Below are positions 10,322 through 59,190 of a stretch of 64,000 bases of DNA, in pieces. Source of the stretch: Escherichia phage AV115; the sequence record OR352945.1; one strand, 5' to 3'. The position numbers were made by a program, and so were the translations under genes. Positions within the stretch are counted from its first letter, which is position 1. Every line of letters begins with the position of its first letter. The notes beneath the pieces are model-generated. The model was not told where the DNA came from. It saw only the letters and a list, made by a program, of their open reading frames with translations, and made no database searches.

Positions 10322-10350
10322 TGCTTTAACGTTAAAATACATAACCTTAT

Positions 10351-10368
10351 GGGAGACTCCGGTCTCCC
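10351..10368 (+). terminator. intrinsic terminator after gene 23
   Basis: GGGAGAC-tccg-GTCTCCC followed by T-rich tract. Confidence 0.6.
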
Positions 10369-10378
10369 ATTCTTGTTT

Positions 10379-11337: not shown

Positions 11338-11367
11338 ATAGTAACACGACGCTTTTTGTGTGTAAAC
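11338..11367 (-). promoter_or_regulatory. early sigma70-type promoter (GTTTAC-N18-TACTAT)
   Basis: Minus strand GTTTAC ... TACTATAGAC followed by conserved leader ...CATGAGGAG... and ATG 11308. Confidence 0.6.
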
Positions 11368-14091: not shown

Positions 14092-14294
14092 TTCTTCACC
14101 TTTTTGTTAATCAAACGTTTACGGTATACAACTTTTTCTTTTACTTTAAACTTTGACCGAGCTGTCTCGGCTTTAGTCCATAGTAATCCAACTTCTTTAG
14201 GTTGTAAACCAATTTTTTGAGCAATTTCTACGAATGAAAATCCCGCCTCATGTAATGTATAAACTTCAACTTCAGCTCTCATAATCAATCCCAT
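14088..14294 (-). CDS. hypothetical protein
   Basis: 68 aa ORF, basic C-terminus; co-oriented with rnlB. Confidence 0.4.
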   Translation of the reverse strand: MGLIMRAEVEVYTLHEAGFSFVEIAQKIGLQPKEVGLLWTKAETARSKFKVKEKVVYRKRLINKKVKK

Positions 14295-17777: not shown

Positions 17778-17788
17778 AGGAGATAAAA

Positions 17789-18022
17789 ATGGTACTTGAA
17801 TTTAAACAATTTTTATACGAAGCATCTATTGACGAATTCATGGGTAAAATTGCTAGTTGTCATACCCTAGAAGGGCTTGAAGAATTGGAAGCTTATTATA
17901 AGAAACGTATAAAAGAAACGGAATTAAAAGATACAGATGATATTTCTGTCAGGGATGCCTTAGCAGGTAAGCGTGCCGAACTTGAAGGCGACGATGATGA
18001 GGATGTGGAAGAAGACTTCTAA
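17789..18022 (+). CDS. uvsW.1: UvsW.1 small acidic protein
   Basis: 77 aa, immediately after uvsW with SD AGGAG. Confidence 0.7.
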   Translation: MVLEFKQFLYEASIDEFMGKIASCHTLEGLEELEAYYKKRIKETELKDTDDISVRDALAGKRAELEGDDDEDVEEDF

Positions 18023-26678: not shown

Positions 26679-26708
26679 ATAGTATCACACATCCGTGTGC
26701 TTGTAAAC
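26679..26708 (-). promoter_or_regulatory. early sigma70-type promoter
   Basis: GTTTAC-N18-TACTAT on minus strand, conserved leader CAACAACATGAGGAAA before ATG 26649. Confidence 0.6.
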
Positions 26709-32290: not shown

Positions 32291-32485
32291 TTATCCTCGC
32301 TTTAAACATTTGATTACAGACAGTTCACCACCCATGCGAACGTCTTCAGTTCCATCGACCCATAGGACGGTGTAGGCTTCTTTAATAGTAGCATTACCTA
32401 ATTTAAAAGCAGGTAAAACCTTTGAAATCATACCAGGAATACCTATACCTTTTAACTGGACAGTTTGTGATAAGAATAGTTGCAT
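32291..32485 (-). CDS. hypothetical protein
   Basis: 64 aa ORF, tightly packed. Confidence 0.4.
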   Translation of the reverse strand: MQLFLSQTVQLKGIGIPGMISKVLPAFKLGNATIKEAYTVLWVDGTEDVRMGGELSVIKCLKRG

Positions 32486-32772
32486 TAGAACCTCATCTGA
32501 AATCCGTGTGATTTAACATTACCGCCATAAATGTCAGAGGTATTGACTTCACGTGCGGCGCTAGGGTCGATGTTAATATCATGGTTGAGCTTAGTGATTG
32601 CTAAGGTGTCACGACCGTTAACAGTACGGAATTCTACCGGGCACACATCATCAGCATAAGCCTTAATGGATTCATGAGTAGGTTGTTTGTCGACAGGAAC
32701 GTCTTTACCTGCTTTAGAGAAAACAACTTCACAGAAATTTTTACGGGTATCAAAATAAGTGGTCATAAACAT
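32485..32772 (-). CDS. hypothetical protein
   Basis: 95 aa ORF with SD GAGGAA upstream. Confidence 0.45.
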   Translation of the reverse strand: MFMTTYFDTRKNFCEVVFSKAGKDVPVDKQPTHESIKAYADDVCPVEFRTVNGRDTLAITKLNHDINIDPSAAREVNTSDIYGGNVKSHGFQMRF

Positions 32773-32787
32773 AATATTTTCCTCAAA

Positions 32788-32809
32788 GGAGGCCGAAGCC
32801 TCCTTTTTT
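32788..32809 (+). terminator. plus-strand-oriented intrinsic terminator inside minus-strand gene cluster
   Basis: GGAGGC-cgaa-GCCTCC followed by T6 on plus strand. Confidence 0.5.
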
Positions 32810-32813
32810 AAGA

Positions 32814-33179
32814 TTAGATATCGAATTCGTTAAGAACTACATCAAAGATTGCTTCGAGATGTTCAGGTTTAGCTCGGTTACTCAGGATATGACGAATCCA
32901 AGTTTTAACCAGAAGTTTACGATTAACACCGTTCCAGCAAGGATGAGTACCTAAATCACGTTGACGGAAATCATCATCTAATGCAATTTTGAAGTTGGAA
33001 CCTTCCATCATGATTGAAACAGTAATGCCATTTTCAAATCGCATATAAACGTAATTAGGAGTCATATACTGCTCAATTTCACATACTGAACCATTTTTAT
33101 GCTTCCACAAGCAAACCATGTCGATAGAACCAGCGATACCGTTAGAAACATATTTACGTTCGAAGTTGATGTAGTTCAT
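32814..33179 (-). CDS. hypothetical early protein
   Basis: 121 aa; early promoter and hairpin directly upstream. Confidence 0.5.
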   Translation of the reverse strand: MNYINFERKYVSNGIAGSIDMVCLWKHKNGSVCEIEQYMTPNYVYMRFENGITVSIMMEGSNFKIALDDDFRQRDLGTHPCWNGVNRKLLVKTWIRHILSNRAKPEHLEAIFDVVLNEFDI

Positions 33180-33220
33180 TTTATTCTCCGGTTGTTTTAT
33201 TGATTAGGTGGTACAAGTCT

Positions 33221-33249
33221 ATAGTAACACATCCTACAGGAGAGTAAAC
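33221..33249 (-). promoter_or_regulatory. early sigma70-type promoter
   Basis: GTTTAC-N17-TACTATAGAC on minus strand, preceded by hairpin 33286-33303. Confidence 0.6.
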
Positions 33250-33285
33250 ATCTTTTTAAACTTTTTCTGCCCTAAACGCACAAAA

Positions 33286-33303
33286 GGGAGACCGAAGTCT
33301 CCC
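33286..33303 (-). terminator. stem-loop GGGAGACCGAAGTCTCCC (copy 1)
   Basis: Perfect 7-bp stem, CGAA loop, T-run on minus strand; precedes early promoter. Confidence 0.55.
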
Positions 33304-33308
33304 TAAAA

Positions 33309-33488
33309 TTATGCAACAACCTTTCCAAAACGAGAAGCATCATCTCGAAGAACTGCACGTGCTCTGCGCATGATCTTCTCAACGGTTTGATTAATACGAG
33401 AGTTCGACCCACGCTTGTATCCAGCGCGTTTAGAGGTACCATCAACTTTCTTTTCAACTGCTTTCTTTGCTTTAGCTTGTTTTGCCAT
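33309..33488 (-). CDS. small basic protein (59 aa)
   Basis: ORF not in track (59 aa): MAKQAKAKKAVEKK...; followed by hairpin terminator at 33286-33303. Confidence 0.4.
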   Translation of the reverse strand: MAKQAKAKKAVEKKVDGTSKRAGYKRGSNSRINQTVEKIMRRARAVLRDDASRFGKVVA

Positions 33489-33651
33489 TATAAATTCTCT
33501 TTAAATGAAAATGCAGGACTTATTGACATTGCCTGCTCAAGCCCTCAATGGGAACATAGGTTTTGGATATTTAACGACAGGATAACCATAAACCCGTCAT
33601 CATACCTACCATGACTTACACAGCTAACCTTTTGCTGACGCATGATAGCAA

Positions 33652-34723: not shown

Positions 34724-35294
34724 AAAAGTTTCGAATTTGTTCCCAATTCAGAGAACGAAGATTATTACGAGAGTACTGAATTACTTCAATACCGGCTTTT
34801 TTTAGAATGTCTGCCCAATTTTCAGGAGATCGGTCATATAATTCTGCATATACAACCTTTTTAATACCTGACTGTGTAATAGCTTTAGTGCAATCAGGAC
34901 ATGGAGAAAGCGTCGTATACAACGTAGCACCTTCAATAGAATTACCTTTACGAGCTGCAAACAAAATTGCATTCAATTCCGCATGGATTTCGTTATTAGC
35001 AGACCATGCACTATGAGCGGCCCGATGTTCTTTAGCCAAAACAAAATTATCCACCCGTCCAAATGCTGTAGTGCCTTCTTTATGCCCAGCAACGATGACC
35101 GGGCTTGGTTTATTCTTCAACCAACCATTTTCGGATGCATGTTCGCAACAGTTTGTACCACCTGAAGGAGAGCCATTATAACCTGTAGAAATAATGCGTC
35201 CATCTTTTTCAATGACGGCGCCAACTTTCCATGAACAACATTTTGATTCTTGAGAAATCAGATAAGCAATCTGAAGATATGTGCTAGCTTTCAT
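34713..35294 (-). CDS. cd: dCMP deaminase
   Basis: 193 aa; HAELNAI and PCPDC zinc-binding motifs. Confidence 0.95.
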   Translation of the reverse strand: MKASTYLQIAYLISQESKCCSWKVGAVIEKDGRIISTGYNGSPSGGTNCCEHASENGWLKNKPSPVIVAGHKEGTTAFGRVDNFVLAKEHRAAHSAWSANNEIHAELNAILFAARKGNSIEGATLYTTLSPCPDCTKAITQSGIKKVVYAELYDRSPENWADILKKAGIEVIQYSRNNLRSLNWEQIRNFCGE

Positions 35295-36286
35295 TATTGA
35301 ACCTTATTAATATAAGTTAACAGCTCTTTAGTTTGTTCCCAACTGATGCACGCATCGGTAATGGAAACGCCATAGGACATATTATCAGAAATTTTTTGAT
35401 TTCCTTCATGTAGGAATGATTCTATCATAATTCCTTTGACCAAATCATTAGCTGCTAAATTTTTACCAATACCAATTTGATTGCTATAATGCCCATCAGC
35501 GTTTGCATGGCTACAGTCAACCATTACATAATGATTCAGACCTACTGCCCTTGCTTTGTTAGAAGCTTCTTGAATATCAGAAGAATGATAGTTCGGGCCG
35601 TTGGTCCCGCCACGCAATACGATATGCGTATTCTGATTACCTTCAGCTTCAACAATGCCTACAGTACCATCGACGTCCATACCCATATACCGATGAGGCC
35701 AGGCGGCACTATACATCGCGTCTGTAGCTACTTTAATAGAACCATTGGTTGCGTTCTTGAAGCCTACGCACATCGGTAGACCTGAAGCAATTTCACGATG
35801 TGTCTGACTTTCAGTCGTACGGGCGCCAATAGCAACCCATGAGAAAATACCAGAAAGATACTTAATCGTGAATGGGTCTAATACTTCAGTTGCTAATGGA
35901 AGTCCCATACGTAGAAGTTTACGACACAATGTTCGTGCAACTATAAGACCGTGGTTCATATCAAAACTTCCGTCAAGATATGGATCATTTACAAGACCTT
36001 TCCAACCTACGGTAGTTCGAGGCTTTTCAAAATAAACGCGCATCACTAACAGAACATTAGGAAGACGAGTTTGAAGTTCAGCCAGACGTTTGCCGTATTC
36101 AACAGCAGCAATAGGGTCATGAATTGAACAAGGACCTACAACAATAAGTTTGCGTGGGTCTTCACCGTTCATAATCGAATTAACTTGTTCGCGATGAGAA
36201 GCCACTTGTGATGCGTAAGCTTCCGACAAAGGAATAATCTCAGCCAGTTCTTTTGGAGAAATAAGTTTTCCGACGACAGGTAACAT
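35294..36286 (-). CDS. 3-deoxy-D-arabino-heptulosonate 7-phosphate (DAHP) synthase, class I
   Basis: 330 aa; full-length similarity to AroG/AroF (GPCSIHD, VYFEKPRTTVGWKGL, IGARTTESQ, KPGxxD motifs); stop overlaps cd start. Confidence 0.88.
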   Translation of the reverse strand: MLPVVGKLISPKELAEIIPLSEAYASQVASHREQVNSIMNGEDPRKLIVVGPCSIHDPIAAVEYGKRLAELQTRLPNVLLVMRVYFEKPRTTVGWKGLVNDPYLDGSFDMNHGLIVARTLCRKLLRMGLPLATEVLDPFTIKYLSGIFSWVAIGARTTESQTHREIASGLPMCVGFKNATNGSIKVATDAMYSAAWPHRYMGMDVDGTVGIVEAEGNQNTHIVLRGGTNGPNYHSSDIQEASNKARAVGLNHYVMVDCSHANADGHYSNQIGIGKNLAANDLVKGIMIESFLHEGNQKISDNMSYGVSITDACISWEQTKELLTYINKVQ

Positions 36287-36671: not shown

Positions 36672-36701
36672 ATAGTATCACAACTCCACCATGTTGTAAA
36701 C
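36672..36701 (-). promoter_or_regulatory. early sigma70-type promoter (operon containing DAHP synthase and cd)
   Basis: GTTTAC-N18-TACTAT(AAC) on minus strand; leader CAACAAATGAGGAAA before ATG 36643. Confidence 0.55.
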
Positions 36702-38769: not shown

Positions 38770-38826
38770 TTAGATTTCCTCAATTATCCATAGGAGCATT
38801 ATACTCTGCTCCCGAGAGTTTGTAAA

Positions 38827-39051
38827 CTATTTTACTAAAGATTCAATATACTCATGAAGAGCTTTAGTAGCTACTGCCCACTTATTCTGATATTCATTTT
38901 TCAGATTAGCACGAGACTGAACTAACAAGCGGTCATTAGTCGGAGGCAAAGATTCTAATCGTTGAATCTGGCGCCCATAAATCATAGCCGCCATTTCAGA
39001 TTCATAGATAAGCCCTTTAATGTATTCATGCTGTTCTTTAGTCATTGGCAT
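38827..39051 (-). CDS. hypothetical protein
   Basis: 74 aa ORF. Confidence 0.4.
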   Translation of the reverse strand: MPMTKEQHEYIKGLIYESEMAAMIYGRQIQRLESLPPTNDRLLVQSRANLKNEYQNKWAVATKALHEYIESLVK

Positions 39052-40203: not shown

Positions 40204-40233
40204 ATAGTAACACCTTCCTTGGTGTTTGTAAAC
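40204..40233 (-). promoter_or_regulatory. early sigma70-type promoter (alc)
   Basis: GTTTAC-N18-TACTATGGC on minus strand upstream of SD GAGGAG / ATG 40173. Confidence 0.55.
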
Positions 40234-41386: not shown

Positions 41387-41416
41387 ATTGTACCACAATC
41401 CTTGTGGTGTGTAAAC
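41387..41416 (-). promoter_or_regulatory. putative early promoter (rnlA)
   Basis: GTTTAC -35 with TACAAT 18 nt downstream, ~27 nt before rnlA ATG; overlaps denA 3' end. Confidence 0.4.
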
Positions 41417-41852: not shown

Positions 41853-42355
41853 TTAGAAATATTTTTTGTATGAATTGATTACATTTTGGTCTACATCATT
41901 ATCAATTTGTGCGACAAGATAAGAACTGATTTCAACTTCCTGAGGAGCTGCTTGAACTAAATCAGAGTTCAGATATTCACGAATCCAAGGATAAGGATGT
42001 TTGGTCGGAGCATCAGTAATTGGACACGGCAAACCACACTGTTTCATACGAGACACAGTCAAGTAATCAACAAAAGCACACATACTCTGTGTATTGATAC
42101 CTGGACATGTACCGTCTTTAAAGAGGTGTGCAGCCCATTCCTTCTCTTGACTATTTACTTCCATAAAAATGTCAACTGCTTCTTGTTCACATTCTTTAGC
42201 AATTTGAACCCACTCATCACCATCAGTACCGGATTGAAGTTGACGGATAATGTACTGAGTACCCTTGAGATGGAGTTGTTCGTCACGAGCAATGAACTTC
42301 ATAATCTTTGCATTGCCTTCCATAATTTCCATATTCTTATGGAAATTAAATGTAC
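41853..42355 (-). CDS. nrdB: ribonucleotide reductase small subunit, exon 2
   Basis: C-terminal NrdB (MEGNAKI..., ARDE..H iron ligands); exon start inferred at 42355 to restore conserved FAC(T)F junction. Confidence 0.8.
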
Positions 42356-42947
42356 CGTTATGTTCGATTGAGCTCGCTAATTCTCAACCCGTTCTCTTAT
42401 GAACTGCTGCATATTACTATGCAGACCAGACTATATCACAATCCCGGAGGGATTCTCCCCATTTCGAGTCGCTTGACCCTACGTCCGAAGACTAGTCGTT
42501 GAACCTTGCTTTGCAATTGTCGCCGTGCCATCGTTTATATGTCGATGGTGATAAATCTTTCTTTTCACAATATGGACAATTCAATTGAATTCTATTTGGA
42601 TTTAATTTGCATCTGTCATTATGTTTTAGATAAAACCCAGGACCTTTACCAATGTGACCGCAGAAATCACATGTGATTTCTTTTTGTGCAGGATGGGTTC
42701 CGTTCTTAACCATTTCTAATGTTTTTGCTGATGTTCTTCCATCAGAATCTTTAGGTATAGGCCCGTTAGCATCCATCCAAATTTTTCTATAATTCAATTG
42801 TGCATCCTCTTAAAAGTATAATCATATTTATTTTATAATATACTAATTAAAGGTGCAAGCAAAACCTTGGCTGCTAGTTTTCCTATAAAGGACTTTCCAG
42901 CAATTAAAGGAGTTTTCGATAAACGTTACCGTTTAAAGGCGCATTTT
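42356..42947 (-). mobile_element. group I self-splicing intron in nrdB
   Basis: ~592 nt interrupting conserved NrdB sequence between YVSFA and MEGNAKI; 5' exon ends in U, intron ends in G; boundaries approximate. Confidence 0.75.
42492..42797 (-). pseudogene. I-TevIII-like homing endonuclease remnant (intron ORF)
   Basis: 101 aa ORF inside intron with TTG start; CxxC...CxxC zinc-finger-like region but no HNH catalytic motif. Confidence 0.5.
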
Positions 42948-43623
42948 ACGCAAAAGATACATAAAAACGAATAGCTTCCAATGCATTGATGACATGCAAA
43001 CAAAGATAAAGAGATTTCATTAGGTCTCGTTTAGCTTCGGTCTCTTGTTTAATAGCTCGGTTTAAACGAAGGTCGGCATCAGGAGATTCTTTAGCTTGTT
43101 CTACAAATTCTTTAGCATTTTCCCAATTACGAGTCTTGACTAGAACATCATCATAATATTTACCTATTGATTCAGCTCGTTTCATGATTGCTTCGTCTAA
43201 TACAATCTCATCAAATACTTTGGATGGATCGGTATAAAGATTTCGCATAATATGAGTATACGAACGAGAGTGAATAGTTTCACTGAATGTCCATGTTGCA
43301 ACCCACGTATCTAATGAAGGGTCGGAAAGCAGTGCCATAAGTACCGCAGATGGGGCCCTGCCTTGGATAGAATCTAATAATGATTGATACTTAAGGTTGT
43401 TTGTAAAGATGTCCTGTTGGAACTGAGGAAGCTTATTGAACTGGGCCGAATCCAGCATCAGGTTTACTTCTTCTGGTCGCCAGAAAAACGACAATTGCTT
43501 TTCAATAAGTTCTTCAAAAACTTTATGTCGCTGAATATCATAACGTGCGAGGCCAAGACCAGAACCAAAGAACATTGGTTCATTCAAAACATCGACTTGT
43601 TGTGTGTTAAAAACTGTACTCAT
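42948..43623 (-). CDS. nrdB: ribonucleotide reductase small subunit, exon 1
   Basis: N-terminal NrdB (...EAIRFYVSFA); in-frame stop lies within intron. Confidence 0.85.
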
Positions 43624-46902: not shown

Positions 46903-47214
46903 TTATACCGCCATTTTAGCTTTGATAGCTGGATGTGATTCGTAATTTTTAAGAACGAAATCAGAATGTGTCATCGTTCCGGTAACCCAGTCCATTTGGA
47001 TTTTTGTAGGCCAATTCTCAAAATTACTAGGCCAATTAATTTCAAGAGAACATAACTCTTTAGGTTCATGACGAAGAACTTCTTTGCATTGTTCTACATG
47101 ATTGCTGTAGATATGCGTGTTGCCGCCTGAGAACACTAAATCACCTGGGATAAGGTTACACATCTTCGCTACAATATGTGTCAAGGCAGCGTACGAGGCG
47201 ATGTTGAACGGTAG
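46903..47214 (-). CDS. td: thymidylate synthase, exon 2
   Basis: C-terminal TS (LPFNIASYA...); track ATG at 47215-47217 is the last 3 nt of the intron (cataATG|CTACCG). Confidence 0.93.
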   Translation of the reverse strand, partial: LPFNIASYAALTHIVAKMCNLIPGDLVFSGGNTHIYSNHVEQCKEVLRHEPKELCSLEINWPSNFENWPTKIQMDWVTGTMTHSDFVLKNYESHPAIKAKMAV

Positions 47215-48230
47215 CATTATGTTCAGATAAGGTCGTTAATCTTATCCCGGAATTATATCCAGCTGCATGTCACCATGCAGAGCAGACTATATCTCCAACT
47301 TGTTAAAGCAAGTTGTCTATCGTTTCGAGTCACTTGACCCTACTCCCTAAAGGGATAGTCGTTAGGCATTTATGTAGAACCAATTCCACTTATCAGATTT
47401 TACACGGTAAGTAACTAATCCTGATGAAATTTCAAAATGTCTAGCCGCATCGGCTGCACATTCAAAAATAATCCCATCGCATGAAATCTTTTTGATGTTA
47501 GCTGGCTTTTTGCCTTTCATCTTTTCAGATAGTTTAGTTTTAGTTTTTTCTGAATGTTTGTGATTAAAGAACGGGTTATTTTCACCTGAACGTTTTCGGC
47601 ACTTTCCACAAGTATCGGCCGAAGATGGTATGCGAACACCGCATTTACAAAACTTGTGGTTTTCTGGATTCCATCGGCCATTTTTACTTCCGTGTTTACC
47701 ATAAAGAGCTTTCCGACCATCAGGACCAAGCTTAAGCATCTTAGCTTTAACAGTTTCAGCTCGTTTCTTAGCAATTTCTTCTTTTAATGGATGATTTGAA
47801 AGCACATCGCCAAAAGACGCATCAGCAATATTATATCCATTAATTTTAGAATTTAGCTCTTTAATCCAAAAATTTTCTCGTTCAATAATCAAATCTTTCT
47901 CATATGGAATTTCTTCCAGTATAGAGCATTCAAAAACATTACCATGTTTATTAAAAGACCTTTGAAATTTTATAGAAGAGTGAACACCGTTTTCAAGGTC
48001 TTTAAAATGTCTCTTCCATCTTTTCTCAAAATCTTTAGCACTTCCAACATACACTTTACCGTTTAAAGTGTTTTTAATCTGATAAATTCCGCTTTTCATA
48101 AACACCTCTTTTTATATAGAAGTATTTATTAAAGGGTAGTCCTACAATTTAGCACGGGATTGTCTACTAGAGAGGTCCCCCGTTTAGATAGATTACAAGT
48201 ATAAGTCACCTTATACCTAGGCCTAAATTA
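47215..48230 (-). mobile_element. group I self-splicing intron in td
   Basis: 1016 nt; 5' and 3' intron sequences as I recall the T4 td intron; exon 1 ends ...GGT. Confidence 0.93.
47362..48099 (-). CDS. I-TevI: intron-encoded GIY-YIG homing endonuclease I-TevI
   Basis: 245 aa from ATG 48099 (track GTG start at 48105); MKSGIYQIKNT...; GIY-YIG plus zinc finger. Confidence 0.97.
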   Translation of the reverse strand: MKSGIYQIKNTLNGKVYVGSAKDFEKRWKRHFKDLENGVHSSIKFQRSFNKHGNVFECSILEEIPYEKDLIIERENFWIKELNSKINGYNIADASFGDVLSNHPLKEEIAKKRAETVKAKMLKLGPDGRKALYGKHGSKNGRWNPENHKFCKCGVRIPSSADTCGKCRKRSGENNPFFNHKHSEKTKTKLSEKMKGKKPANIKKISCDGIIFECAADAARHFEISSGLVTYRVKSDKWNWFYINA

Positions 48231-48779
48231 ACCTAAGAAAACATCTACACTGCGTTGATACCATTGTAAATCAAGATGACCATTACGCACATTGAACTGA
48301 TAGAACATATGGCAAGGAGGAAGAGCCATTTGATTTATTTCAGCCGGATTCCAGGCAGAAACAATTTGACGACGATCAGTTGGTAATTTTTTAATACGGT
48401 CGATTGTTTCAACTAATTGGTCTACACCACCAAAATCACGCCATTGCTTACCATAAATAGGACCAAGTTCGCCGCTATGATATCCAAGGTCTTTTGCCTG
48501 ATTTTCATAGTTGTCGTCCCAAATAGTTTTACCTTGAATAAGACTACCATGAGTACGAATACGCAAATCATTAACATTGGTAGAACCAGACATGAACCAC
48601 AGTAACTCGGCAATACAAGCTTTCCATGCTAATTTCTTAGTTGTTACTGCAGGAAATCCTTTAGTAAGGTCCCAACGTAATTTAGTTCCGAACAGGGCAA
48701 TAGTGCCGGTACCTGTACGGTCGTCTGTTTCGTAGCCATTTTCTAAGATATCTTTAATCAGGTATTGGTATTGTTTCAT
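48231..48779 (-). CDS. td: thymidylate synthase, exon 1
   Basis: N-terminal TS with active-site region PPCH; 183 codons. Confidence 0.95.
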
Positions 48780-49677: not shown

Positions 49678-50070
49678 CTACTTTTTAAAAGTTTTTTGCA
49701 AAAGTTTGATGATTTCGTCGACGTTGGTTTCATCTACGATACAATGGATTTTTGTTACACCTAAAGTTATACCTTCGTTAGTAGGTTGAGGCTTTACTAA
49801 ATCTACTTCAATAAAGTATTTGAACTCGTCAGGATAAATCTCGAAATAAGTTTCAATTTCACCACCGGCAGAACATACAGTACCGTCTTCCATAGTTACA
49901 CTTACTACGTTTGACGTATCGCTATCATAATCAGGTTCCATTCCGTTTACAACAAAACTAGGCCCATGGAGTTCAATCAATTTTAACATCTTAGCGTTAT
50001 TGTGTGGTGCTTCTTGAACAAAGTCGTCTTTAAATAAAGGGTTAATGATATAAGATTTTCCGATTTCCAT
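49678..50070 (-). CDS. hypothetical early protein
   Basis: 130 aa; SD GAGGAA and early promoter upstream. Confidence 0.5.
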   Translation of the reverse strand: MEIGKSYIINPLFKDDFVQEAPHNNAKMLKLIELHGPSFVVNGMEPDYDSDTSNVVSVTMEDGTVCSAGGEIETYFEIYPDEFKYFIEVDLVKPQPTNEGITLGVTKIHCIVDETNVDEIIKLLQKTFKK

Positions 50071-50099
50071 TTTGATTTCCTCATGTTGTTGATAGGTCT

Positions 50100-50128
50100 A
50101 TACTAACACATCCAGGTAAGAAGTAAAC
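50100..50128 (-). promoter_or_regulatory. early sigma70-type promoter
   Basis: GTTTAC-N17-TAGTATAGAC on minus strand, preceded by hairpin 50160-50177; leader CAACAACATGAGGAAA. Confidence 0.6.
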
Positions 50129-50159
50129 AACTTTTTCGGCAATTTACAGATACTCAAAA

Positions 50160-50177
50160 GGGAGACCGAAGTCTCCC
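50160..50177 (-). terminator. stem-loop GGGAGACCGAAGTCTCCC (copy 2), after gene 32
   Basis: Identical 18-nt hairpin, T-run on minus strand, followed by early promoter. Confidence 0.6.
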
Positions 50178-50183
50178 AATTTA

Positions 50184-51083
50184 TTATAGACCAGCTAACA
50201 GGTCATCGAGGTCACCATCGTCAGAAGACGAGGAACTCATGAAGTCATCTTCAGTTTTTGCAGAACCAAAGGCTTCCATGTCTTTATCAAAATCGTCAAG
50301 GTCAGAAGCAACTTTATCTGCAACAGAAGCTGCTGCGGCTGCTGCACCACCAAGAGCGGCAGTACCAAGAACTTGATTAAATTTAGTATTCAATTCTTCA
50401 AACGATTTGAACTTATCTTTAGAAGTCATTTCAGAAAGGTCGACCATTTGTTCGAACAATTCTTTCTGGAAAGATTCATCATCAATGTTTGGAATCGCAG
50501 ATTGATTCAGGAATTTAGATTCGTCGTAGTTACTGAAACCAGAAACCTGTTTAACTTTCAGCACAAAGTTAGCACCTTCCCACGGGCAAGTTACATCAAC
50601 AGGAGTTTCACCCATTTCAGTATCGACTGCAATCATTGCATTGATTTTGTCCCAAATCTTTTTACCGAAACGATATTTGAATACTTTACCTTCATTATCT
50701 GGAGCTTGAGGGTCTTTAACAACCAGAATATTAGCCCAATAAGAAGTTTTACGTTTCAGTTGAGAATATTCAGTTTTGTTGGTATTGTACAGGTCATTTT
50801 TACTAATGTACTGACATACAGGACAAGAGTCATAATCGCCGTGTGTAGATGAACAGGTTTCAATATACCATTTACCATTTTTCTTGAACCCGTGGTTAAC
50901 AAGAATTGTAAACGGAAGTGCGTCATCTGTTTTTGCCGGCAGGAAACGAATTACCGCTTGACCATTACCGGATGCATCGAGTTTCAGCTTCCATTCACCT
51001 TTATCTTCTGAAGAGAAACCTTTGTTACCATTCAGTTTAGCCATCTGAGCTGCGAGGTCTGCGGTACTTTTACGTTTAAACAT
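50184..51083 (-). CDS. 32: single-stranded DNA-binding protein
   Basis: 299 aa; near-identical to T4 gp32 (zinc site, acidic C-terminal tail). Confidence 0.97.
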
Positions 51084-51200: not shown

Positions 51201-51854
51201 TTAATACTTACATGATTTGATTGTTTCTATGAACAATTTCTTAGCAGCATTTCTATCGATTTGAAGTATTTTTCGATATGCCTTTAATTTGGTAGAATAA
51301 TTTTGCCAGACTAAGTTATCGGTGAGTTCGTCGTGCTTATCTATAATATTCAAAAACGAGTCCAACAATAAGAAAGTTTCAAATGAAATTATATTGCTTT
51401 GTAGCAATTTAAATATGTAGCTCGACTGAACGTTGTTATTATAATCAAATATCTCTTGAAGCGCACTAACTTCAACTTTCTTACTGAAATAGTAGATGTT
51501 ACGTACGTCTTCAGCAAACGTCTCCTTGGCTTGTTTGAGACGTCCAATATATTCCCTATAGAAAACTAATGCATCAGCGTCTGATATCTCACCAATCCAT
51601 GCGTCTTGGTTAGCAACTAAGTTGCTTATGAATATCAAGGTGAGTTCCTTCAATTTATATTTCTCTGCTAGTTTTTCAAAGAAATATTTATCTCGGCGTT
51701 TTTGATACGCATTATCCGAAACACGCATGCACCAGTTATATTTGATTACGTCATACCGACCACCAAAGTGGTTTTTGCACATCAAGTATAGTTTATATAC
51801 TGATTTTCCATTAATATAACGTTCTCCGTCAGGAGGCATGCGTATTTTAATCAT
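51201..51854 (-). CDS. 59: helicase loader
   Basis: 217 aa; close to T4 gp59. Confidence 0.95.
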   Translation of the reverse strand: MIKIRMPPDGERYINGKSVYKLYLMCKNHFGGRYDVIKYNWCMRVSDNAYQKRRDKYFFEKLAEKYKLKELTLIFISNLVANQDAWIGEISDADALVFYREYIGRLKQAKETFAEDVRNIYYFSKKVEVSALQEIFDYNNNVQSSYIFKLLQSNIISFETFLLLDSFLNIIDKHDELTDNLVWQNYSTKLKAYRKILQIDRNAAKKLFIETIKSCKY

Positions 51855-52530
51855 AGTTCCATCCAGGCCATTTTGAAGATTTAAGTCTATATGTAACTAA
51901 AGACGCAGAAATATTAAAAACATTTGAAACTTCTTTACACGAGGCGTATTTTACACCATCAATAATTATAGGTTTTTGTTTTTTAATAGTTCTTTCTTTA
52001 GAATGCGGCTTTGAATTTGCTATTCTAAGAGCTTCTTTGGTTGAATCAGGCATCGGCTTATTCGTTTTTCGCCCTTTTCGGACTTTACTCAAGGCCAATT
52101 TGTGAGCTTCAGATAGTTTCTTACCCTTATTAGGTGACGGTATTTTTCTTTCTAGTCTTGTTTTAGATACTTTAGCCTTAGTCTCTTCAGATCTAGGTTT
52201 ACCTAATTTAGAAAGTGAAATAGACCTTTTAGCTTCATCACTTTGTTTTTTACCAGGACCACCTTTACCACCGGGAACTAAGTTATAAGTATCATCTCGC
52301 AAAACAAAATCTTCATTAACCAATTCTGCTTCTTTTTTATAGGCGTCCTTGTCATTATCATATTCATAAAGAATTTCGGTATAAAAATTTTTTAGTCCAT
52401 ATTTAGCTTTGGCCGCTAATATAGCGCGGCCTGATCCAATATACCAATCTTTCTCTTTATGTTTTTTGTGTACGCCTATATAAATTTTACCATTTATTTT
52501 ATTGGTAGTTTTATACACAACGTATTTCAT
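51847..52530 (-). CDS. GIY-YIG homing endonuclease (Seg-like)
   Basis: 227 aa; VYKTTNKINGKIYIG motif, K-rich C-terminal half; ATG overlaps gene 33 stop (ATGA), 3' end overlaps gene 59 start. Confidence 0.8.
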   Translation of the reverse strand: MKYVVYKTTNKINGKIYIGVHKKHKEKDWYIGSGRAILAAKAKYGLKNFYTEILYEYDNDKDAYKKEAELVNEDFVLRDDTYNLVPGGKGGPGKKQSDEAKRSISLSKLGKPRSEETKAKVSKTRLERKIPSPNKGKKLSEAHKLALSKVRKGRKTNKPMPDSTKEALRIANSKPHSKERTIKKQKPIIIDGVKYASCKEVSNVFNISASLVTYRLKSSKWPGWNYD

Positions 52531-54069: not shown

Positions 54070-54099
54070 ATAGTAACACACTCATTTGAAAGCGTAAAC
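54070..54099 (-). promoter_or_regulatory. early sigma70-type promoter (rnh)
   Basis: GTTTAC-N18-TACTATAGAC on minus strand ~33 nt before rnh ATG; 4 nt from gene 34 late promoter on opposite strand. Confidence 0.55.
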
Positions 54100-54140: not shown

Positions 54141-57100
54141 ATGGCCGACATCAAACGTAAGTTCAGAGCCGAAGACGGTCTGGACGCCGGTGGCGACAAG
54201 ATTGTTAACGTAGCATTAGCCGACCGTACAGTAGGTACTGATGGCGTAAACGTTGACTTCCTGGTACAAGAAAACACCGTTCAAGTATATGATTCTACGC
54301 GTGGATATAACAGAGGATTTGTTGTTCTTTATGACAACCGCTTATATCAAGCAATAAATGATATCGTGTCTCCTTCCGGGGCATTTAACCTTTTACAATG
54401 GCGTGCAGTTCGTACTGATGCACAATGGATAACCGTCGCTTCTGGGACTTATCAACTTTCTTCAGGCGAATCGATTTCTGTTAACACTGGTGCCGGCAAT
54501 GATATGGTTTTCACGTTGCCAAATACTCCGGTTGATGGTGATACTGTTGTTTTGGCTGATATTGGTGGAAGAACCGGGACAGTTAAAGTACAGATTAACG
54601 CGTCTGTGCAGAGTATTTTAAACTTTAGAGGTGAACAAGTTCGTACAGTTTTAATGACGCGCCCACGTTCACAACTATTGTTTGTGTTTAGTAATCGTTT
54701 GTGGCAGATGTATATTATCGATTATGGTAAAGAATCAATCACTGTTACACCTGCGACACCATATCAAGCACAAGCAAATGATTTTATCGTTCGTCGTTTT
54801 ACTAGTGCAGCACCAATCAACATTACACTTCCACGTAATGCTAACAATGGTGATATAATCAGCCTAGTCGATTTAGATAGATTAAACCCACTGTATCATA
54901 CAATTGTTAAAACATTTGATGATACAACGTCTATTGGTGAAGTCGGGACTCATATTGCCGAAGGCAGAAATGACTCTGACGCGTTTTTTGTTTTTGATGC
55001 CGCAAATAGTTTATGGCGTATATGGGAAGGCGACCAGAAATCGCGTCTTCGTATTATCCGTGCGGATTCAAATATTCGTCCAAATGAAGAAGTTCTTATT
55101 TTTGGCACAAATAACGCTACAGCCGGAACTATTAATCTTACGCTGCCTTCCGGAATTTTGAGTGGTGACACTGTTAAAATTTCAATGAACTACATGCGTA
55201 AAGGCCAAACAGTAAAAATTAAAGCTGCCGAAGGTGATACAATTGCTTCTTCTGTCGCATTACTTCAGTTCCCTAAACGTTCTGAATATCCACCTGATGC
55301 TCAATGGGTTTCTGTTACTGAACTAGAATTCAATGGCACTACTTCATATGTTCCTGTGTTAGAATTAGCGTATATCGAAGACACTGTTGCTGGTACACGT
55401 TATTGGGTTGTTCAACAAAACGTCCCTACAGTAGAACGTGTTGATGCTGGAACTGATGCTACACGAGCTCGTTTAGGTGTTATTGCTCTTGCTACTCAAG
55501 CGCAAGCAAATGTTGATTTAGAGAATACTCCAGCTAAAGAAGTGGCTATTACTCCGGAAACATTGGCAAATCGTACAGCAACTGAAGCTCGACGTGGTAT
55601 CGCTAAAATTGCTACAACAGCACAAGTTAACCAGAATTCCACAGCATCATTTGTGGACGATACTATTGTTACGCCTAAAAAACTAAATGAGCGTACAGCA
55701 ACTGAAACTCGTCGCGGTCTTGCTGAAATTGCTACTCAGACCGAAACCGATGCTGGTCTTGATGACACAACGATTATTACACCTAAGAAATTGCAGGCAC
55801 GTCAGGGTTCTGAAACACTATCGGGTATAGTTAAATATGTATCAACTACTTCTGCTACTCCTGCTGAAACTCGTGGGGCTGCAGGCACTAACGTTTATAA
55901 TAAAGACACAACTACGTTAACTATTTCGCCTAAAGCTCTCGATCAGTATAAAGCGACTTCTACTCAACAGGGTGCTACTATTCTGGCTCTTGAAAGTGAA
56001 GTAATTGCTGGTCAATCCCAAGCAGGTTATTCTCATGCTGTAGTAACTCCTGAAACACTACATAAGAAAACTTCTACTGATGGACGTATTGGTTTAATTG
56101 AAATTGCTACGCAAGCAGAAACTAATGCTGGGACTGATTATACACGTGCAGTAACGCCTAAGACGTTAAATGATAGGAAAGCTACGGAAGGATTATCCGG
56201 CATAGCCGAACTTGCTACGCAAGTTGAATTTGATACTGGAACTGATGATACTCGTATCTCGACTCCACTGAAAATTAAAACTCATTTTGATTCTTCTGAC
56301 CGTACCAGTGTTAATTCTGATTCCGGACTTATTGAAGAAGGAACCTTGTGGAACCATTATACTCTTGATATTTCTAAAGCAAATGAAACACAACGTGGTA
56401 CACTTCGCGTAGCGACCCAGGCAGAATCTAATGCAGGAACTTTAGATGATGTTCTTATTACTCCTAAAAAGCTTTTAGGGACTAAGTCCACTGAAACGTC
56501 TGAAGGCGTAATTAAGGTTGCTACTCAGGCTGAAACTGTAACAGGAACTTCTGCTAATACTGCTGTATCTCCTAAGAATTTAAAATGGATTGTCCAGAAA
56601 GAACCAACATGGGCTGCTACTACAGCAATTCGCGGATTCGTTAAAACTTCATCCGGTTCTATTACATTCGTTGGTAATGATACAGTCGGTTCTACCCAAG
56701 ATTTAGAACTGTATGAGAAAAATAGCTATGCAGTATCACCATATGAATTAAACCGTGTATTGGCAAATTATTTGCCGTTAAAAGCAAAAGCCGTAGATAG
56801 TAATTTATTGGATGGTCTAGATTCATCTCAGTTCATTCGTAGGGACATCGCCCAGTCAGTTAATGGTTCACTAACCTTAACCCAACAAACGAATCTGAGT
56901 GCCCCTCTTGTATCATCTAGTACTGCTACGTTTGGTGGTTCAGTTTCGGCAAATAGTACATTAACTATTTCTAACTCTGGAACAGCTACTCGTCTGATTT
57001 TTGAAAAAGGACCTCAGTCCGGAACAAATCCTGCTCAAACGATGACTATCAGAGTTTGGGGAAATGAATTTGGTGGTGGTTCAGATACAACACGTTCTAC

Positions 57101-59157: not shown

Positions 59158-59175
59158 GGGAGACCGAAGTCTCCC
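59158..59175 (+). terminator. stem-loop GGGAGACCGAAGTCTCCC (copy 3), after gene 35
   Basis: Identical 18-nt hairpin followed by ATTTTTG, then late promoter. Confidence 0.6.
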
Positions 59176-59182
59176 ATTTTTG

Positions 59183-59190
59183 TATAAATA
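59183..59190 (+). promoter_or_regulatory. late promoter TATAAATA (gene 36)
   Basis: Exact TATAAATA ~25 nt before gene 36 ATG, after gene 35 terminator. Confidence 0.7.

What the first reader, a model, noticed from the sequence alone, without database searches (positions are those of the whole stretch)
50070..50177. Reiterated hairpin + early promoter + leader cassettes upstream of small early ORFs
A near-identical module recurs on the minus strand: GTTTAC, 17-18 nt, TA(C/G)TATAGAC, then leader ...CAACAACATGAGGAAA..., then ATG. Copies are at about 11338-11367, 26679-26708, 33221-33249, 36672-36701, 40204-40233, 50100-50128 and 54070-54099. Several are directly preceded by a stem-loop (33286-33303, 50160-50177). 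These look like the promoter-early-stem-loop cassettes reported in T4-type genomes as recombination hotspots, and each heads a small ORF of unknown function, a class that often contains host-takeover or anti-defence proteins.
Basis: seen in the sequence. Interest (0 to 1): 0.45.

Follow-up and report, generated by a model that had tools for sequence, protein, structure and literature searches.

The report
T4-type early promoters with terminator hairpins
The repeated motif is the standard early-gene promoter of an RB69-like (T4-family) coliphage, here sitting just after the gene 32 terminator hairpin; it is real and probably functional, but it was already predicted at the same sites in phage RB69 in 2006, so it is ordinary.

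Summary
The window is a Mosigvirus (RB69-like T-even phage), 99.8% identical to Escherichia phage AV116. All seven claimed copies exist. A strict scan finds ten sites (GTTTAC, 17-18 nt, TA..[AT]T), all on the minus strand and all directly upstream of minus-strand gene starts. The exact motif occurs 5 times against 0.10 expected. All ten sit at the same positions as early promoters predicted for RB69 by Nolan et al. 2006.

The focal element (50070-50177) has three parts: the gene 32 terminator hairpin GGGAGAC-UUCG-GUCUCCC, a sigma-70 early promoter, and a leader of about 22 nt ending at the ATG of frd.2. T4 and 28 of 29 other T-even-like loci have a hairpin at this position, and most also have the promoter.

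Only 2 of 10 promoters have an upstream hairpin, so the composite PeSL form is the minority. The "leader" is largely the general Mosigvirus start-region consensus (CTATCAA; 30 of 57 RB69 promoters).

Comparison with RB69, G2469 and AV110 shows three indels whose junctions lie inside cassettes: loss of gene 30.8, absence of ORF245c, and a cargo swap between genes 23 and 24. This fits the published PeSL shuffling model, but the events are no more frequent than expected at gene boundaries.

Verdict: real, functional by homology, already known.

The parts
50184..51083 (-). Gene 32 (single-stranded DNA-binding protein, 299 aa). It is the upstream gene, and its transcript ends at the hairpin.
   Evidence: ORF listed; annotated in AV116 and RB69.
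50150..50177 (-). Gene 32 terminator: 7-bp G+C-rich stem with a C(UUCG)G tetraloop (50160-50177), followed by UUUUGAGUAU. It begins 6 nt after the TAATAA stop of gene 32. Its tail on the other strand also passes the terminator scan.
   Evidence: Stem -12.0 kcal/mol. The 51-nt context folds at -13.9 kcal/mol, z = -2.2. Called terminator-like on both strands. A hairpin is conserved at this position in 28 of 29 T-even-like loci, with different stem sequences. T4 has GGGGACCctagaGGTCCCC-T6 here.
50129..50143 (-). A-rich upstream (UP-like) region, gccgAAAAAgtt.
   Evidence: Block consensus aaAAaA.T. just upstream of GTTTAC across the ten sites. Nolan et al. 2006 describe an A-rich -40 to -44 region.
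50100..50128 (-). Early sigma-70 promoter: -35 region GTTTAC (50128-50123), 17-nt spacer ending in TGT (extended -10), and -10 TAGTAT (50105-50100).
   Evidence: Sits at the position of RB69 Pe:146013 and of the T4 promoter upstream of frd.3.
50071..50099 (-). Start region and leader. The start is inferred at A50093 (7 nt after the -10), giving the 5'UTR AUCAACAACAUGAGGAAAUCAAA, with SD GAGG at 50082-50079.
   Evidence: Sequence. The offset is shared with 26708, 36701, 11367 and 40233. The CTATCAA-type start region occurs in 30 of 57 RB69 early promoters. The start position is inferred, not mapped.
49678..50070 (-). First gene of the unit: frd.2 homologue, 130 aa (phrog_622, function unknown). 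T4 Frd.2 is predicted to have an LSm-like fold.
   Evidence: RB69 frd.2 annotation; PMC12152347.
33221..33304 (-). Second composite cassette: identical hairpin (33285-33304) plus promoter (33249-33221), driving gene 30.7 (32814-33179). Its leader carries GGAGAATAAAA at 33189-33179.
54070..54099 (-). Early promoter of rnh (RNase H). No upstream hairpin.
   Evidence: T4 has the same promoter position. RB69 Pe:149309.
41387..41416 (-). GTTTAC overlaps the denA stop codon. The spacer holds a 7-bp inverted repeat, ACCACAAggaTTGTGGT.
   Evidence: RB69 Pe:139277.
40204..40233 (-). Early promoter of alc, with leader uAUCAACAACCAGAGGAGA.
   Evidence: RB69 Pe:138093.
38798..38827 (-). A 6-bp inverted repeat GGAGCA/TGCTCC brackets the -10.
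   Evidence: RB69 Pe:136687. Near-identical copies in RB69 at Pe:42515, 72069 and 165022.
36672..36701 (-). Early promoter of a cd.2-like 78-aa ORF, with leader ACCAACAAAUGAGGAAA.
   Evidence: RB69 Pe:134561.
26679..26708 (-). Early promoter of alt.-3 (97 aa). GTTTAC overlaps the alt stop codon. The leader CAUCAACAACAUGAGGAAA is the closest match to the focal copy (22 of 30 nt).
   Evidence: RB69 Pe:125323.
14180..14209 (-). The leader is 88 nt long and contains a hairpin.
   Evidence: RB69 Pe:112451.
11338..11367 (-). Early promoter between genes 23 and 24, driving an 88-aa ORF plus segD. Leader uAUCAAAACAUGAGGAGA.
   Evidence: RB69 Pe:109605.
10349..10370 (.). Hairpin TGGGAGAC-TCCG-GTCTCCCA after gene 23, using the same stem as the gene 32 terminator. 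It marks the distal boundary of the cargo swap at the 11367 cassette.

Best explanation
The motif family is the set of early (host sigma-70 RNA polymerase) promoters of a Mosigvirus.

How each site is built:
- an A-rich UP-like tract
- the T-even-specific -35 region GTTTAC
- a 17-18 nt spacer ending in TGn
- a -10 hexamer, usually TACTAT
- a conserved start region, (C)CTATCAA
- a short, C/A-rich leader of about 22 nt with a GAGG or GGAG Shine-Dalgarno 5-6 nt before the ATG

How it works (inferred by homology with T4): straight after infection the host polymerase fires from these sites and transcribes minus-strand early genes.

The focal element combines two functions. The UUCG-tetraloop hairpin plus U-run, 6 nt after the gene 32 stop, ends gene 32 transcripts. 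The promoter 31 nt further on starts a new early unit: frd.2, frd.1, frd and td.

In evolution, the repeated 25-95 nt promoter-leader sequences provide short homologies at which small early genes are gained, lost or swapped. This is the published PeSL model.

Shown here: the motif, its strand and position bias, its correspondence to RB69 and T4 promoter positions, the hairpins, and the junction sequences of three indels.
Inferred: promoter activity, the start site, termination, and the recombination mechanism.
For: Motif and position
- The motif is far above chance and strictly co-oriented with the genes: 5 against 0.10 expected; ten strong sites, all on the minus strand.
- All ten lie 26-41 nt upstream of an ATG, one at 88 nt.
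- 8 of 10 have TGn at -15 to -13, and the consensus includes an A-rich upstream tract.

Match to known promoters
- Nine RB69 sites that match the strict motif coincide with Nolan et al.'s Pe sites. The tenth (rnh) matches Pe:149309 by position.
- T4 has the same order after gene 32: terminator hairpin, GTTTAC-N18-TACTAT, then the first gene. T4 has the same promoter position before rnh.
- T4 frd.3 mRNA, driven by the T4 counterpart of the focal promoter, is among the most abundant NAD-capped T4 RNAs. NAD capping requires a primary transcript with an A at +1.
- Hinton 2010 describes T4 early promoters as UP/-35/TGn/-10 promoters with additional regions of consensus.

Hairpin
- Stable, and called terminator-like.
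- Present after gene 32 in 28 of 29 T-even-like loci, with different but complementary stems.
- Nolan 2006 reports a terminator after gene 32 conserved in 5 of 6 genomes.

Recombination
- Gene 30.8 is flanked in RB69 by two cassette copies (Pe:132117 and Pe:131670) that overlap over 94 nt. It is absent here, and the crossover maps to GGAGAATAAAATGAAC.
- ORF245c is flanked in RB69 and AV110 by leader repeats of about 26 nt. It is absent here and present in only about 9 phage genomes.
- The cargo between P11367 and the gene 23 hairpin is replaced.
- frd.3 follows the gene 32 cassette in T4 but sits behind a different early promoter in RB69.
Against: - No transcript 5' or 3' ends are available for this phage, so promoter and terminator activity rest on homology.
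- The U-run after the hairpin is short (UUUU, then GAGUAU), and the z-score of the 51-nt context is modest (-2.2).
- Only 2 of 10 promoters here, and 6 of 57 in RB69, have an upstream hairpin, so the composite form is not the rule.
- Cassette junctions account for 3 of 15 indel events. Five events are homing-endonuclease insertions. Against a gene-boundary null the three give no enrichment.
- The direction of each event (gain or loss) is unresolved.
Confidence: 0.9

Rival explanations
1. These are ordinary early promoters and ordinary terminators, and nothing more. Their similarity reflects selection for strong polymerase and ribosome binding. Their coincidence with indel junctions arises only because indels of whole genes must fall at gene boundaries. 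They have no special role as mobile or recombinogenic cassettes.
For: - Similarity is at consensus level (60-76% identity).
- The leader and start region is a genome-wide consensus (30 of 57 RB69 sites).
- Only 3 of 15 events touch a cassette, about the expectation for gene-boundary indels.
- Five events are homing-endonuclease insertions unrelated to the cassettes.
- Another small-gene indel, between frd and frd.1 in G2469 and 348Ecol098PP, is not at a cassette.
Against: - Two junctions show the signature of recombination between two cassette copies that are both present in relatives (94-nt and 26-nt overlaps).
- Arbiol et al. 2010 demonstrated PeSL-mediated deletion and mini-circles experimentally in RB49 and phi1.
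Confidence: 0.4
2. The sites are MotA/AsiA-dependent middle promoters rather than early promoters.
For: RB69-type phages encode MotA and AsiA and have predicted middle promoters. The -10 and TGn elements are shared by both promoter classes.
Against: - All ten sites carry GTTTAC in the -35 region with a sigma-70 spacing, and none has a MotA box.
- None of the 16 TGCTT-N12-14-TANNNT matches in the window coincides with the ten sites, and that pattern is not enriched (16 against 11.9 expected).
Confidence: 0.03
3. The copies are remnants of a small mobile DNA element (MITE-like) or homing-endonuclease target sites, not regulatory signals.
For: The sequences are repeated and some lie next to variable genes. 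segD lies downstream of the 11367 copy.
Against: - The alignments of the copies show no terminal inverted repeats or target-site duplications.
- Every copy has one orientation, co-directional with the downstream gene, at a fixed distance from its ATG.
- Positions are conserved between this phage, RB69 and T4.
- The homing-endonuclease insertions in the window lie elsewhere.
Confidence: 0.02

Closest known systems
Predicted early promoters of phage RB69 (Nolan, Petrov, Bertrand, Krisch and Karam 2006, Virol J 3:30; Additional file 3)
   Same: Same genus, same consensus (GTTTAC, A-rich -40 to -44, C-rich -3 to -1) and same genomic positions. Window sites 11367, 14209, 26708, 33249, 36701, 38827, 40233, 41416, 50128 and 54099 correspond to Pe:109605, 112451, 125323, 132117/131670, 134561, 136687, 138093, 139277, 146013 and 149309.
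   Different: This phage has one cassette where RB69 has two (gene 30.8 is missing). It also lacks ORF245c after the gene 32 cassette, so the promoter directly drives frd.2.
T4 early promoters (UP/-35/TGn/-10 type; Hinton 2010, Virol J 7:289)
   Same: Recognised by host sigma-70 polymerase, with GTTTAC in the -35 region, an extended -10 and A-rich upstream DNA. The positions after gene 32 and before rnh are the same in T4.
   Different: The -10 here is mostly TACTAT. The start region CTATCAA and the short C/A-rich leader are more strongly conserved than in the two T4 examples read here.
PeSL (promoter-early stem-loop) cassettes (Arbiol et al. 2010, Genome Biol Evol 2:140; Comeau et al. 2014, Genome Biol Evol 6:1611)
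   Same: Composite of a stem-loop, an AT-rich tract, an early promoter, an SD and an ATG. Some indel junctions between close relatives lie in the cassettes. The T4/PST consensus TTTACW-N17-TAYWAT with an upstream stem-loop matches 50128 and 33249.
   Different: Only 2 of 10 sites have the upstream stem-loop. Copies are less alike than the RB49/phi1 cassettes are described to be. Several sites drive conserved genes of known function. Mini-circles have not been tested.
T4 gene 32 transcription terminator and C(UUCG)G tetraloop hairpins of T4 intercistronic regions (my own knowledge: Prentki and Krisch 1984 omega interposon; Tuerk et al. 1988)
   Same: G+C-rich hairpin plus U-run immediately after gene 32. 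There are ten C(UUCG)G hairpins in the window.
   Different: The stem sequence differs from T4 (GGGAGAC/GUCUCCC against GGGGACC/GGUCCCC), and the loop is UUCG rather than CUAGA.

Membership tests
T4-type (Tevenvirinae) early sigma-70 promoter | GTTTAC at about -36 to -31 | tested here: met
   Exact GTTTAC at all ten sites.
T4-type (Tevenvirinae) early sigma-70 promoter | Spacer of 17 +/- 1 nt to a TAnnnT -10 hexamer, usually with TGn (extended -10) | tested here: met
   All ten have a 17-18 nt spacer after GTTTAC and TA..[AT]T. Eight of ten have TG at -15/-14.
T4-type (Tevenvirinae) early sigma-70 promoter | A-rich UP-like tract around -40 to -45 | tested here: met
   Block consensus aaAAaA.T.GTTTAC. 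It is weaker where the tract lies inside the upstream coding sequence.
T4-type (Tevenvirinae) early sigma-70 promoter | Located 5' of, and co-oriented with, early genes | tested here: met
   10 of 10 on the minus strand, upstream of minus-strand ATGs; none on the plus strand.
T4-type (Tevenvirinae) early sigma-70 promoter | Same position as promoters described in reference phages | tested here: met
   10 of 10 correspond to RB69 Pe sites. The T4 sites after gene 32 and before rnh also match.
T4-type (Tevenvirinae) early sigma-70 promoter | Primary 5' ends appearing immediately after infection | not testable with these tools
   Indirect evidence only: T4 frd.3 mRNA is an abundant NAD-capped (+1A primary) transcript.
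PeSL (promoter-early stem-loop) cassette | Stem-loop within or next to the promoter | tested here: inconclusive
   Strong upstream hairpins at 2 of 10 sites; 6 of 57 in RB69. Short inverted repeats lie in the spacer or around the -10 at 41416 (7 bp, P = 0.013), 40233 and 38827 (6 bp, P about 0.07), which is not significant collectively.
PeSL (promoter-early stem-loop) cassette | Shine-Dalgarno and start codon at the 3' end of the cassette | tested here: met
   The -10 end to ATG distance is 26-32 nt in 8 of 10, with GAGG or GGAG 5-6 nt before the ATG.
PeSL (promoter-early stem-loop) cassette | Preferentially upstream of variable genes or genes of unknown function | tested here: inconclusive
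   7 of 10 first genes are PHROG families of unknown function. Three are rnh, alc and rnlA.
PeSL (promoter-early stem-loop) cassette | Indel junctions between close relatives fall in the cassettes | tested here: inconclusive
   3 of 15 events, two of them with repeat-overlap signatures. There is no excess over a gene-boundary null.
PeSL (promoter-early stem-loop) cassette | Excision of cassette-flanked genes as mini-circles | not testable with these tools
   Needs PCR on infected cells or virion DNA (method in Arbiol et al. 2010).
Intrinsic (rho-independent) terminator of gene 32 | G+C-rich stem-loop followed by a U-run directly after the stop codon | tested here: met
   7-bp stem, UUCG loop, then UUUUGAGU, starting 6 nt after TAATAA.
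Intrinsic (rho-independent) terminator of gene 32 | Structure conserved in relatives despite sequence change | tested here: met
   28 of 29 loci have a hairpin here, with at least seven different complementary stem sequences.
Intrinsic (rho-independent) terminator of gene 32 | Transcript 3' ends at the U-run | not testable with these tools
   No RNA data are available for this phage.
MotA-dependent middle promoter | MotA box (TGCTT) centred at -30 in place of a -35 element | tested here: not met
   None of the ten sites has it, and none of the 16 pattern matches overlaps them.

The most novel reading that the evidence does not exclude
The conserved start region and short C/A-rich 5'UTR (AUCAA[A/C]A[A/C]...GAGG, start inferred at the A) may be more than a by-product of promoter consensus. 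It is shared by about half of Mosigvirus early promoters and recurs after gene 32 in other T-even genera. It could be a functional RNA or DNA element in its own right. One possibility is a translation or stability signal read by a host or phage RNA-binding protein; candidates are Hfq and the LSm-like Frd.2, GoF and MotB.1 family. Another is that it is the preferred crossover site for gene shuffling.
Probability: 0.1. Interest if true: 0.45.

Novelty: already known. Interest (0 to 1): 0.15.

Why it matters
The finding has little novelty. It re-identifies the early promoter set of an RB69-like phage and the gene 32 terminator. It is useful mainly for annotation, because the deposited records shown here list no promoters.

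Two modest points of value remain. First, the window gives two clean examples in the Mosigvirus group of gene loss or gain whose junctions lie in repeated promoter-leader sequences. This extends the PeSL idea, described for the RB49/phi1, T4/PST and nt-1/KVP40 pairs, to another genus. Second, it points to a set of promoter-proximal early genes of unknown function as candidates for host-takeover studies: frd.2, 30.7, alt.-3, a cd.2-like ORF, and the 99-aa and 88-aa ORFs.

Tried and rejected
- Generic sigma-70 and terminator consensus scans do not discriminate: 67 against 61 and 77 against 59 promoter-like sites. Only the phage-specific extended motif is informative.
- An Rfam scan of the whole window gave no hit.
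- The MotA-box search found no overlap with the ten sites.
- I looked for the T4 frd.3 start coordinate in the supplement of the NAD-cap preprint. Nothing is held there.
- Miller et al. 2003 (PMC150520) is not in the library, so the mapped T4 early promoter list could not be cited directly.
- I tested whether short inverted repeats inside the promoters (PeSL subclasses) exceed chance. They are individually marginal and collectively not significant.
- I tested whether relatives with about 250 extra bases in the 48-52 kb segment carry different cargo at the focal cassette. In G2469 and 348Ecol098PP the extra gene lies between frd and frd.1, not at the cassette.
- Cassette junctions among indels: 3 of 15 looks high against a uniform null. 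I set that comparison aside in favour of a gene-boundary null, under which there is no enrichment.
- The mobile-element (MITE-like) and homing-site readings were rejected on orientation, the fixed distance to the ATG and positional conservation.

Full report
**Identity of the window**

A 4-kb segment around the finding is 99.8% identical to Escherichia phage AV116 (genus Mosigvirus, the RB69 group of T-even phages), and 744 phage records match it. The AV116 and RB69 annotations show that the window runs from the small terminase gene to the tail-fibre and holin genes. Late structural genes are on the plus strand and early and middle genes on the minus strand. The finding lies between gene 32 (50184-51083, minus) and a frd.2 homologue (49678-50070, minus).

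**Check of the observation**

All seven claimed copies are present as described.
- GTTTAC-N15-20-TANTATA occurs five times, all on the minus strand, against 0.10 expected.
- The full 33-nt pattern occurs twice against 0.06 expected.
- A strict scan gives ten strong sites, all on the minus strand. Looser matches occur at background frequency on both strands.
- All ten sites lie upstream of a minus-strand ATG. The distance from the -10 end to the ATG is 26-32 nt in eight of them, using the annotated start for 11367.
- Eight have TG at -15/-14, and the upstream consensus is A-rich.

The exact 16-mer occurs twice. ATGAGGARA occurs five times in the window, four of them at the same offset behind these promoters. 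Five of the ten sites share [TC]A[TC]CAA[CA]A at one fixed offset. Pairwise identity between copies is 60-76%, which is similarity at consensus level, not near-identity.

**The stem-loops**

Only two promoters have a strong hairpin within 110 nt upstream. Both hairpins share the 18-nt sequence GGGAGACTTCGGTCTCCC and end 31 and 35 nt before GTTTAC.

The same stem recurs at 10352, 26331 and 59159 (5 matches against 0.01 expected). The window holds ten C(UUCG)G tetraloop hairpins. The folds are stable (-12 to -19 kcal/mol, z from -2.2 to -5.0), and the focal hairpin is called terminator-like on both strands.

In five of the eight promoters without a hairpin, the stop codon of the upstream gene abuts or overlaps GTTTAC. 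There is no room for a terminator at those sites, so these promoters sit inside operons.

**What it is**

Nolan et al. 2006 predicted 57-58 early promoters in RB69 with an HMM. They noted GTTTAC at -36 to -31, an A-rich -40 to -44 region, C at -3 to -1, and a terminator after gene 32 conserved in five of six genomes.
- Their coordinates coincide with every strict-motif site in the corresponding RB69 segment.
- The rnh site matches Pe:149309 by position.

T4 itself has the same order after gene 32: stop codon, hairpin GGGGACCctagaGGTCCCC-T6, GTTTAC-N18-TACTAT, then the first gene. T4 also has the same promoter position in front of rnh.

In 29 T-even-like loci from IMG/VR, 28 have a G+C-rich hairpin right after gene 32, with at least seven different complementary stems. 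Most are followed by GTTTAC-N16-19-TAnn[AT]T.

Hinton 2010 describes T4 early promoters as UP/-35/TGn/-10 promoters with extra regions of consensus. A recent preprint lists T4 frd.3 mRNA among the most abundant NAD-capped T4 RNAs; that mRNA is driven by the T4 counterpart of the focal promoter. The preprint also shows that NAD-RNA 5' ends coincide with primary +1A starts.

None of the ten sites has a MotA box, so they are not middle promoters.

I therefore read the family as the early promoters of this phage. I read the focal element as the gene 32 terminator followed by the early promoter of frd.2, frd.1, frd and td. Activity, the start site (inferred at A50093) and termination are inferred by homology, not shown.

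**The leader**

Across the 57 minus-strand RB69 Pe sites, 30 have a CTATC-type start region directly after the -10. Fourteen have the [TC]A[TC]CAA[CA]A motif. Similar leaders follow the gene 32 cassette in other genera.

It is not evidence that these particular copies are duplicates.

The 33249 leader carries GGAGAATAAAA, a perfect match to the strong RegB cleavage consensus GGAGRAYARAA quoted by Uzan and Miller 2010. This fits an early mRNA.

**Cargo**

The first genes behind the ten promoters are:
- rnh
- frd.2
- rnlA
- alc
- a 99-aa ORF
- a cd.2-like 78-aa ORF
- 30.7
- alt.-3
- 24.2
- an 88-aa ORF followed by segD

The seven small ones all fall in PHROG families of unknown function. T4 Frd.2 has been assigned a predicted LSm-like fold.

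**Recombination**

Aligning the window to RB69, G2469 and AV110 gives 15 distinct indel or replacement events. Three have junctions inside cassettes.
1. Window 33163-33256 matches two places in RB69, the cassettes Pe:132117 and Pe:131670 that flank gene 30.8. The window has a single hybrid. It is identical to Pe:132117 through ...GGAGAATAAAATGAAC and then continues as gene 30.7. This is the signature of recombination between two tandem cassettes.
2. Window 50068-50093, the leader, matches two places in RB69 and AV110 that flank ORF245c. That gene is absent here and occurs in only about nine phage genomes. Its last codons (ATC AAC AAA TGA) lie inside the leader motif.
3. Between P11367 and the gene 23 hairpin at 10352, the cargo differs (88-aa ORF plus segD here, two tiny ORFs in RB69). 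The promoter consensus and the hairpin are retained.

In addition, the frd.3 homologue follows the gene 32 cassette in T4. In RB69 it sits at 72055-72282, flanked by two other early promoters.

These observations fit the PeSL model of Arbiol 2010 and Comeau 2014. The limits are these:
- Five of the 15 events are homing-endonuclease insertions, and two are intragenic variation (hoc, gene 34).
- Ten of about 61 minus-strand gene starts carry such a promoter. Three of eight small-gene events touching one is therefore about what chance placement at gene boundaries would give.
- Another small-gene indel in relatives is not at a cassette.
- Only 6 of 57 RB69 promoters have an upstream hairpin.

**Verdict**

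The feature is already known: the corresponding sites were published for RB69 in 2006, and the PeSL concept covers the composite form. Interest is low.

The only reading with some novelty is that the conserved start region and C/A-rich leader is a functional element of its own, or the preferred crossover site. My evidence does not exclude this, and it does not support it beyond the two junctions.

Noticed in passing
window 35294-36286 (-): A 330-aa gene matches phospho-2-dehydro-3-deoxyheptonate aldolase (DAHP synthase; phrog_5045, E = 3e-182). It sits between cd and the cd.2-like ORF. It is absent from RB69 (1094-nt insertion) and present in AV110 and G2469. It may be an auxiliary metabolic gene of the shikimate pathway in a T-even phage.
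   Followed up: partly
window 51847-52530 (-): A 227-aa homing-endonuclease-like ORF (phrog_314, E = 2e-56) lies between gene 59 and gene 33. It is absent from RB69 (671-nt insertion). AV116 annotates only a 138-aa hypothetical protein here.
   Followed up: partly
window 42355-42950 and 47214-48232: nrdB and td are each split by an insertion that carries a homing-endonuclease gene, relative to the uninterrupted RB69 genes. Even so, the Rfam scan at gathering thresholds reported no group I intron anywhere in the window.
   Followed up: no
window 59158-59190 (+): The same 18-nt hairpin as the gene 32 terminator occurs after gene 35 in the opposite orientation (loop CGAA on the plus strand). It is followed by AUUUUUG and then directly by a late-promoter motif TATAAATA (59183-59190). 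This makes a terminator plus late-promoter composite.
   Followed up: partly
window 11367/11374-11381 and 54099/54103-54110: There are two back-to-back divergent promoter pairs. The A/T-rich tract just upstream of two minus-strand early promoters contains TATAAATA on the plus strand, the late-promoter motif, for genes 24 and 34.
   Followed up: no
window 33179-33189 (-): The leader of the 33249 cassette reads GGAGAATAAAA, a perfect match to the strong RegB endoribonuclease consensus GGAGRAYARAA. The 11367 and 40233 leaders also contain GGAG.
   Followed up: partly
L090:22055-22282 (RB69 72055-72282): RB69 carries its homologue of T4 frd.3 in the e.6-e.8 variable region, flanked on both sides by early promoters (Pe:72354 and Pe:72069), not after gene 32 as in T4. 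The same small gene therefore sits behind different cassettes in two phages.
   Followed up: partly
window 41387-41416, 40204-40233, 38798-38827 (-): Short inverted repeats lie inside the promoters: ACCACAAggaTTGTGGT in the spacer, AACACC/GGTGTT in the spacer, and GGAGCA/TGCTCC around the -10. They resemble the internal stem-loop subclasses of RB49/phi1 PeSLs but are only marginally above shuffles. RB69 has four near-identical copies of the 38827-type cassette.
   Followed up: partly
window 32785-32806 (-): A 9-bp UUCG hairpin sits 13 nt before the ATG of the next gene, with the SD directly after the stem. The gene downstream of it (32483-32770) is replaced by a longer, unrelated gene in G2469 and AV110, with one breakpoint at 32766.
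   Followed up: partly
window 55419-56255 (+): Diverged direct repeats of 48-67 nt lie within the proximal long-tail-fibre gene 34 (families D1 and D2, 60-79% identity). They probably encode a repeated structural motif.
   Followed up: no
AV116 record, features at 33307-33528 and 17784-18017: Some product names in the closest public record look implausible. For example, a 73-aa ORF is named '1,4-alpha-glucan branching enzyme'. This matters only as a caution when using that annotation.
   Followed up: no
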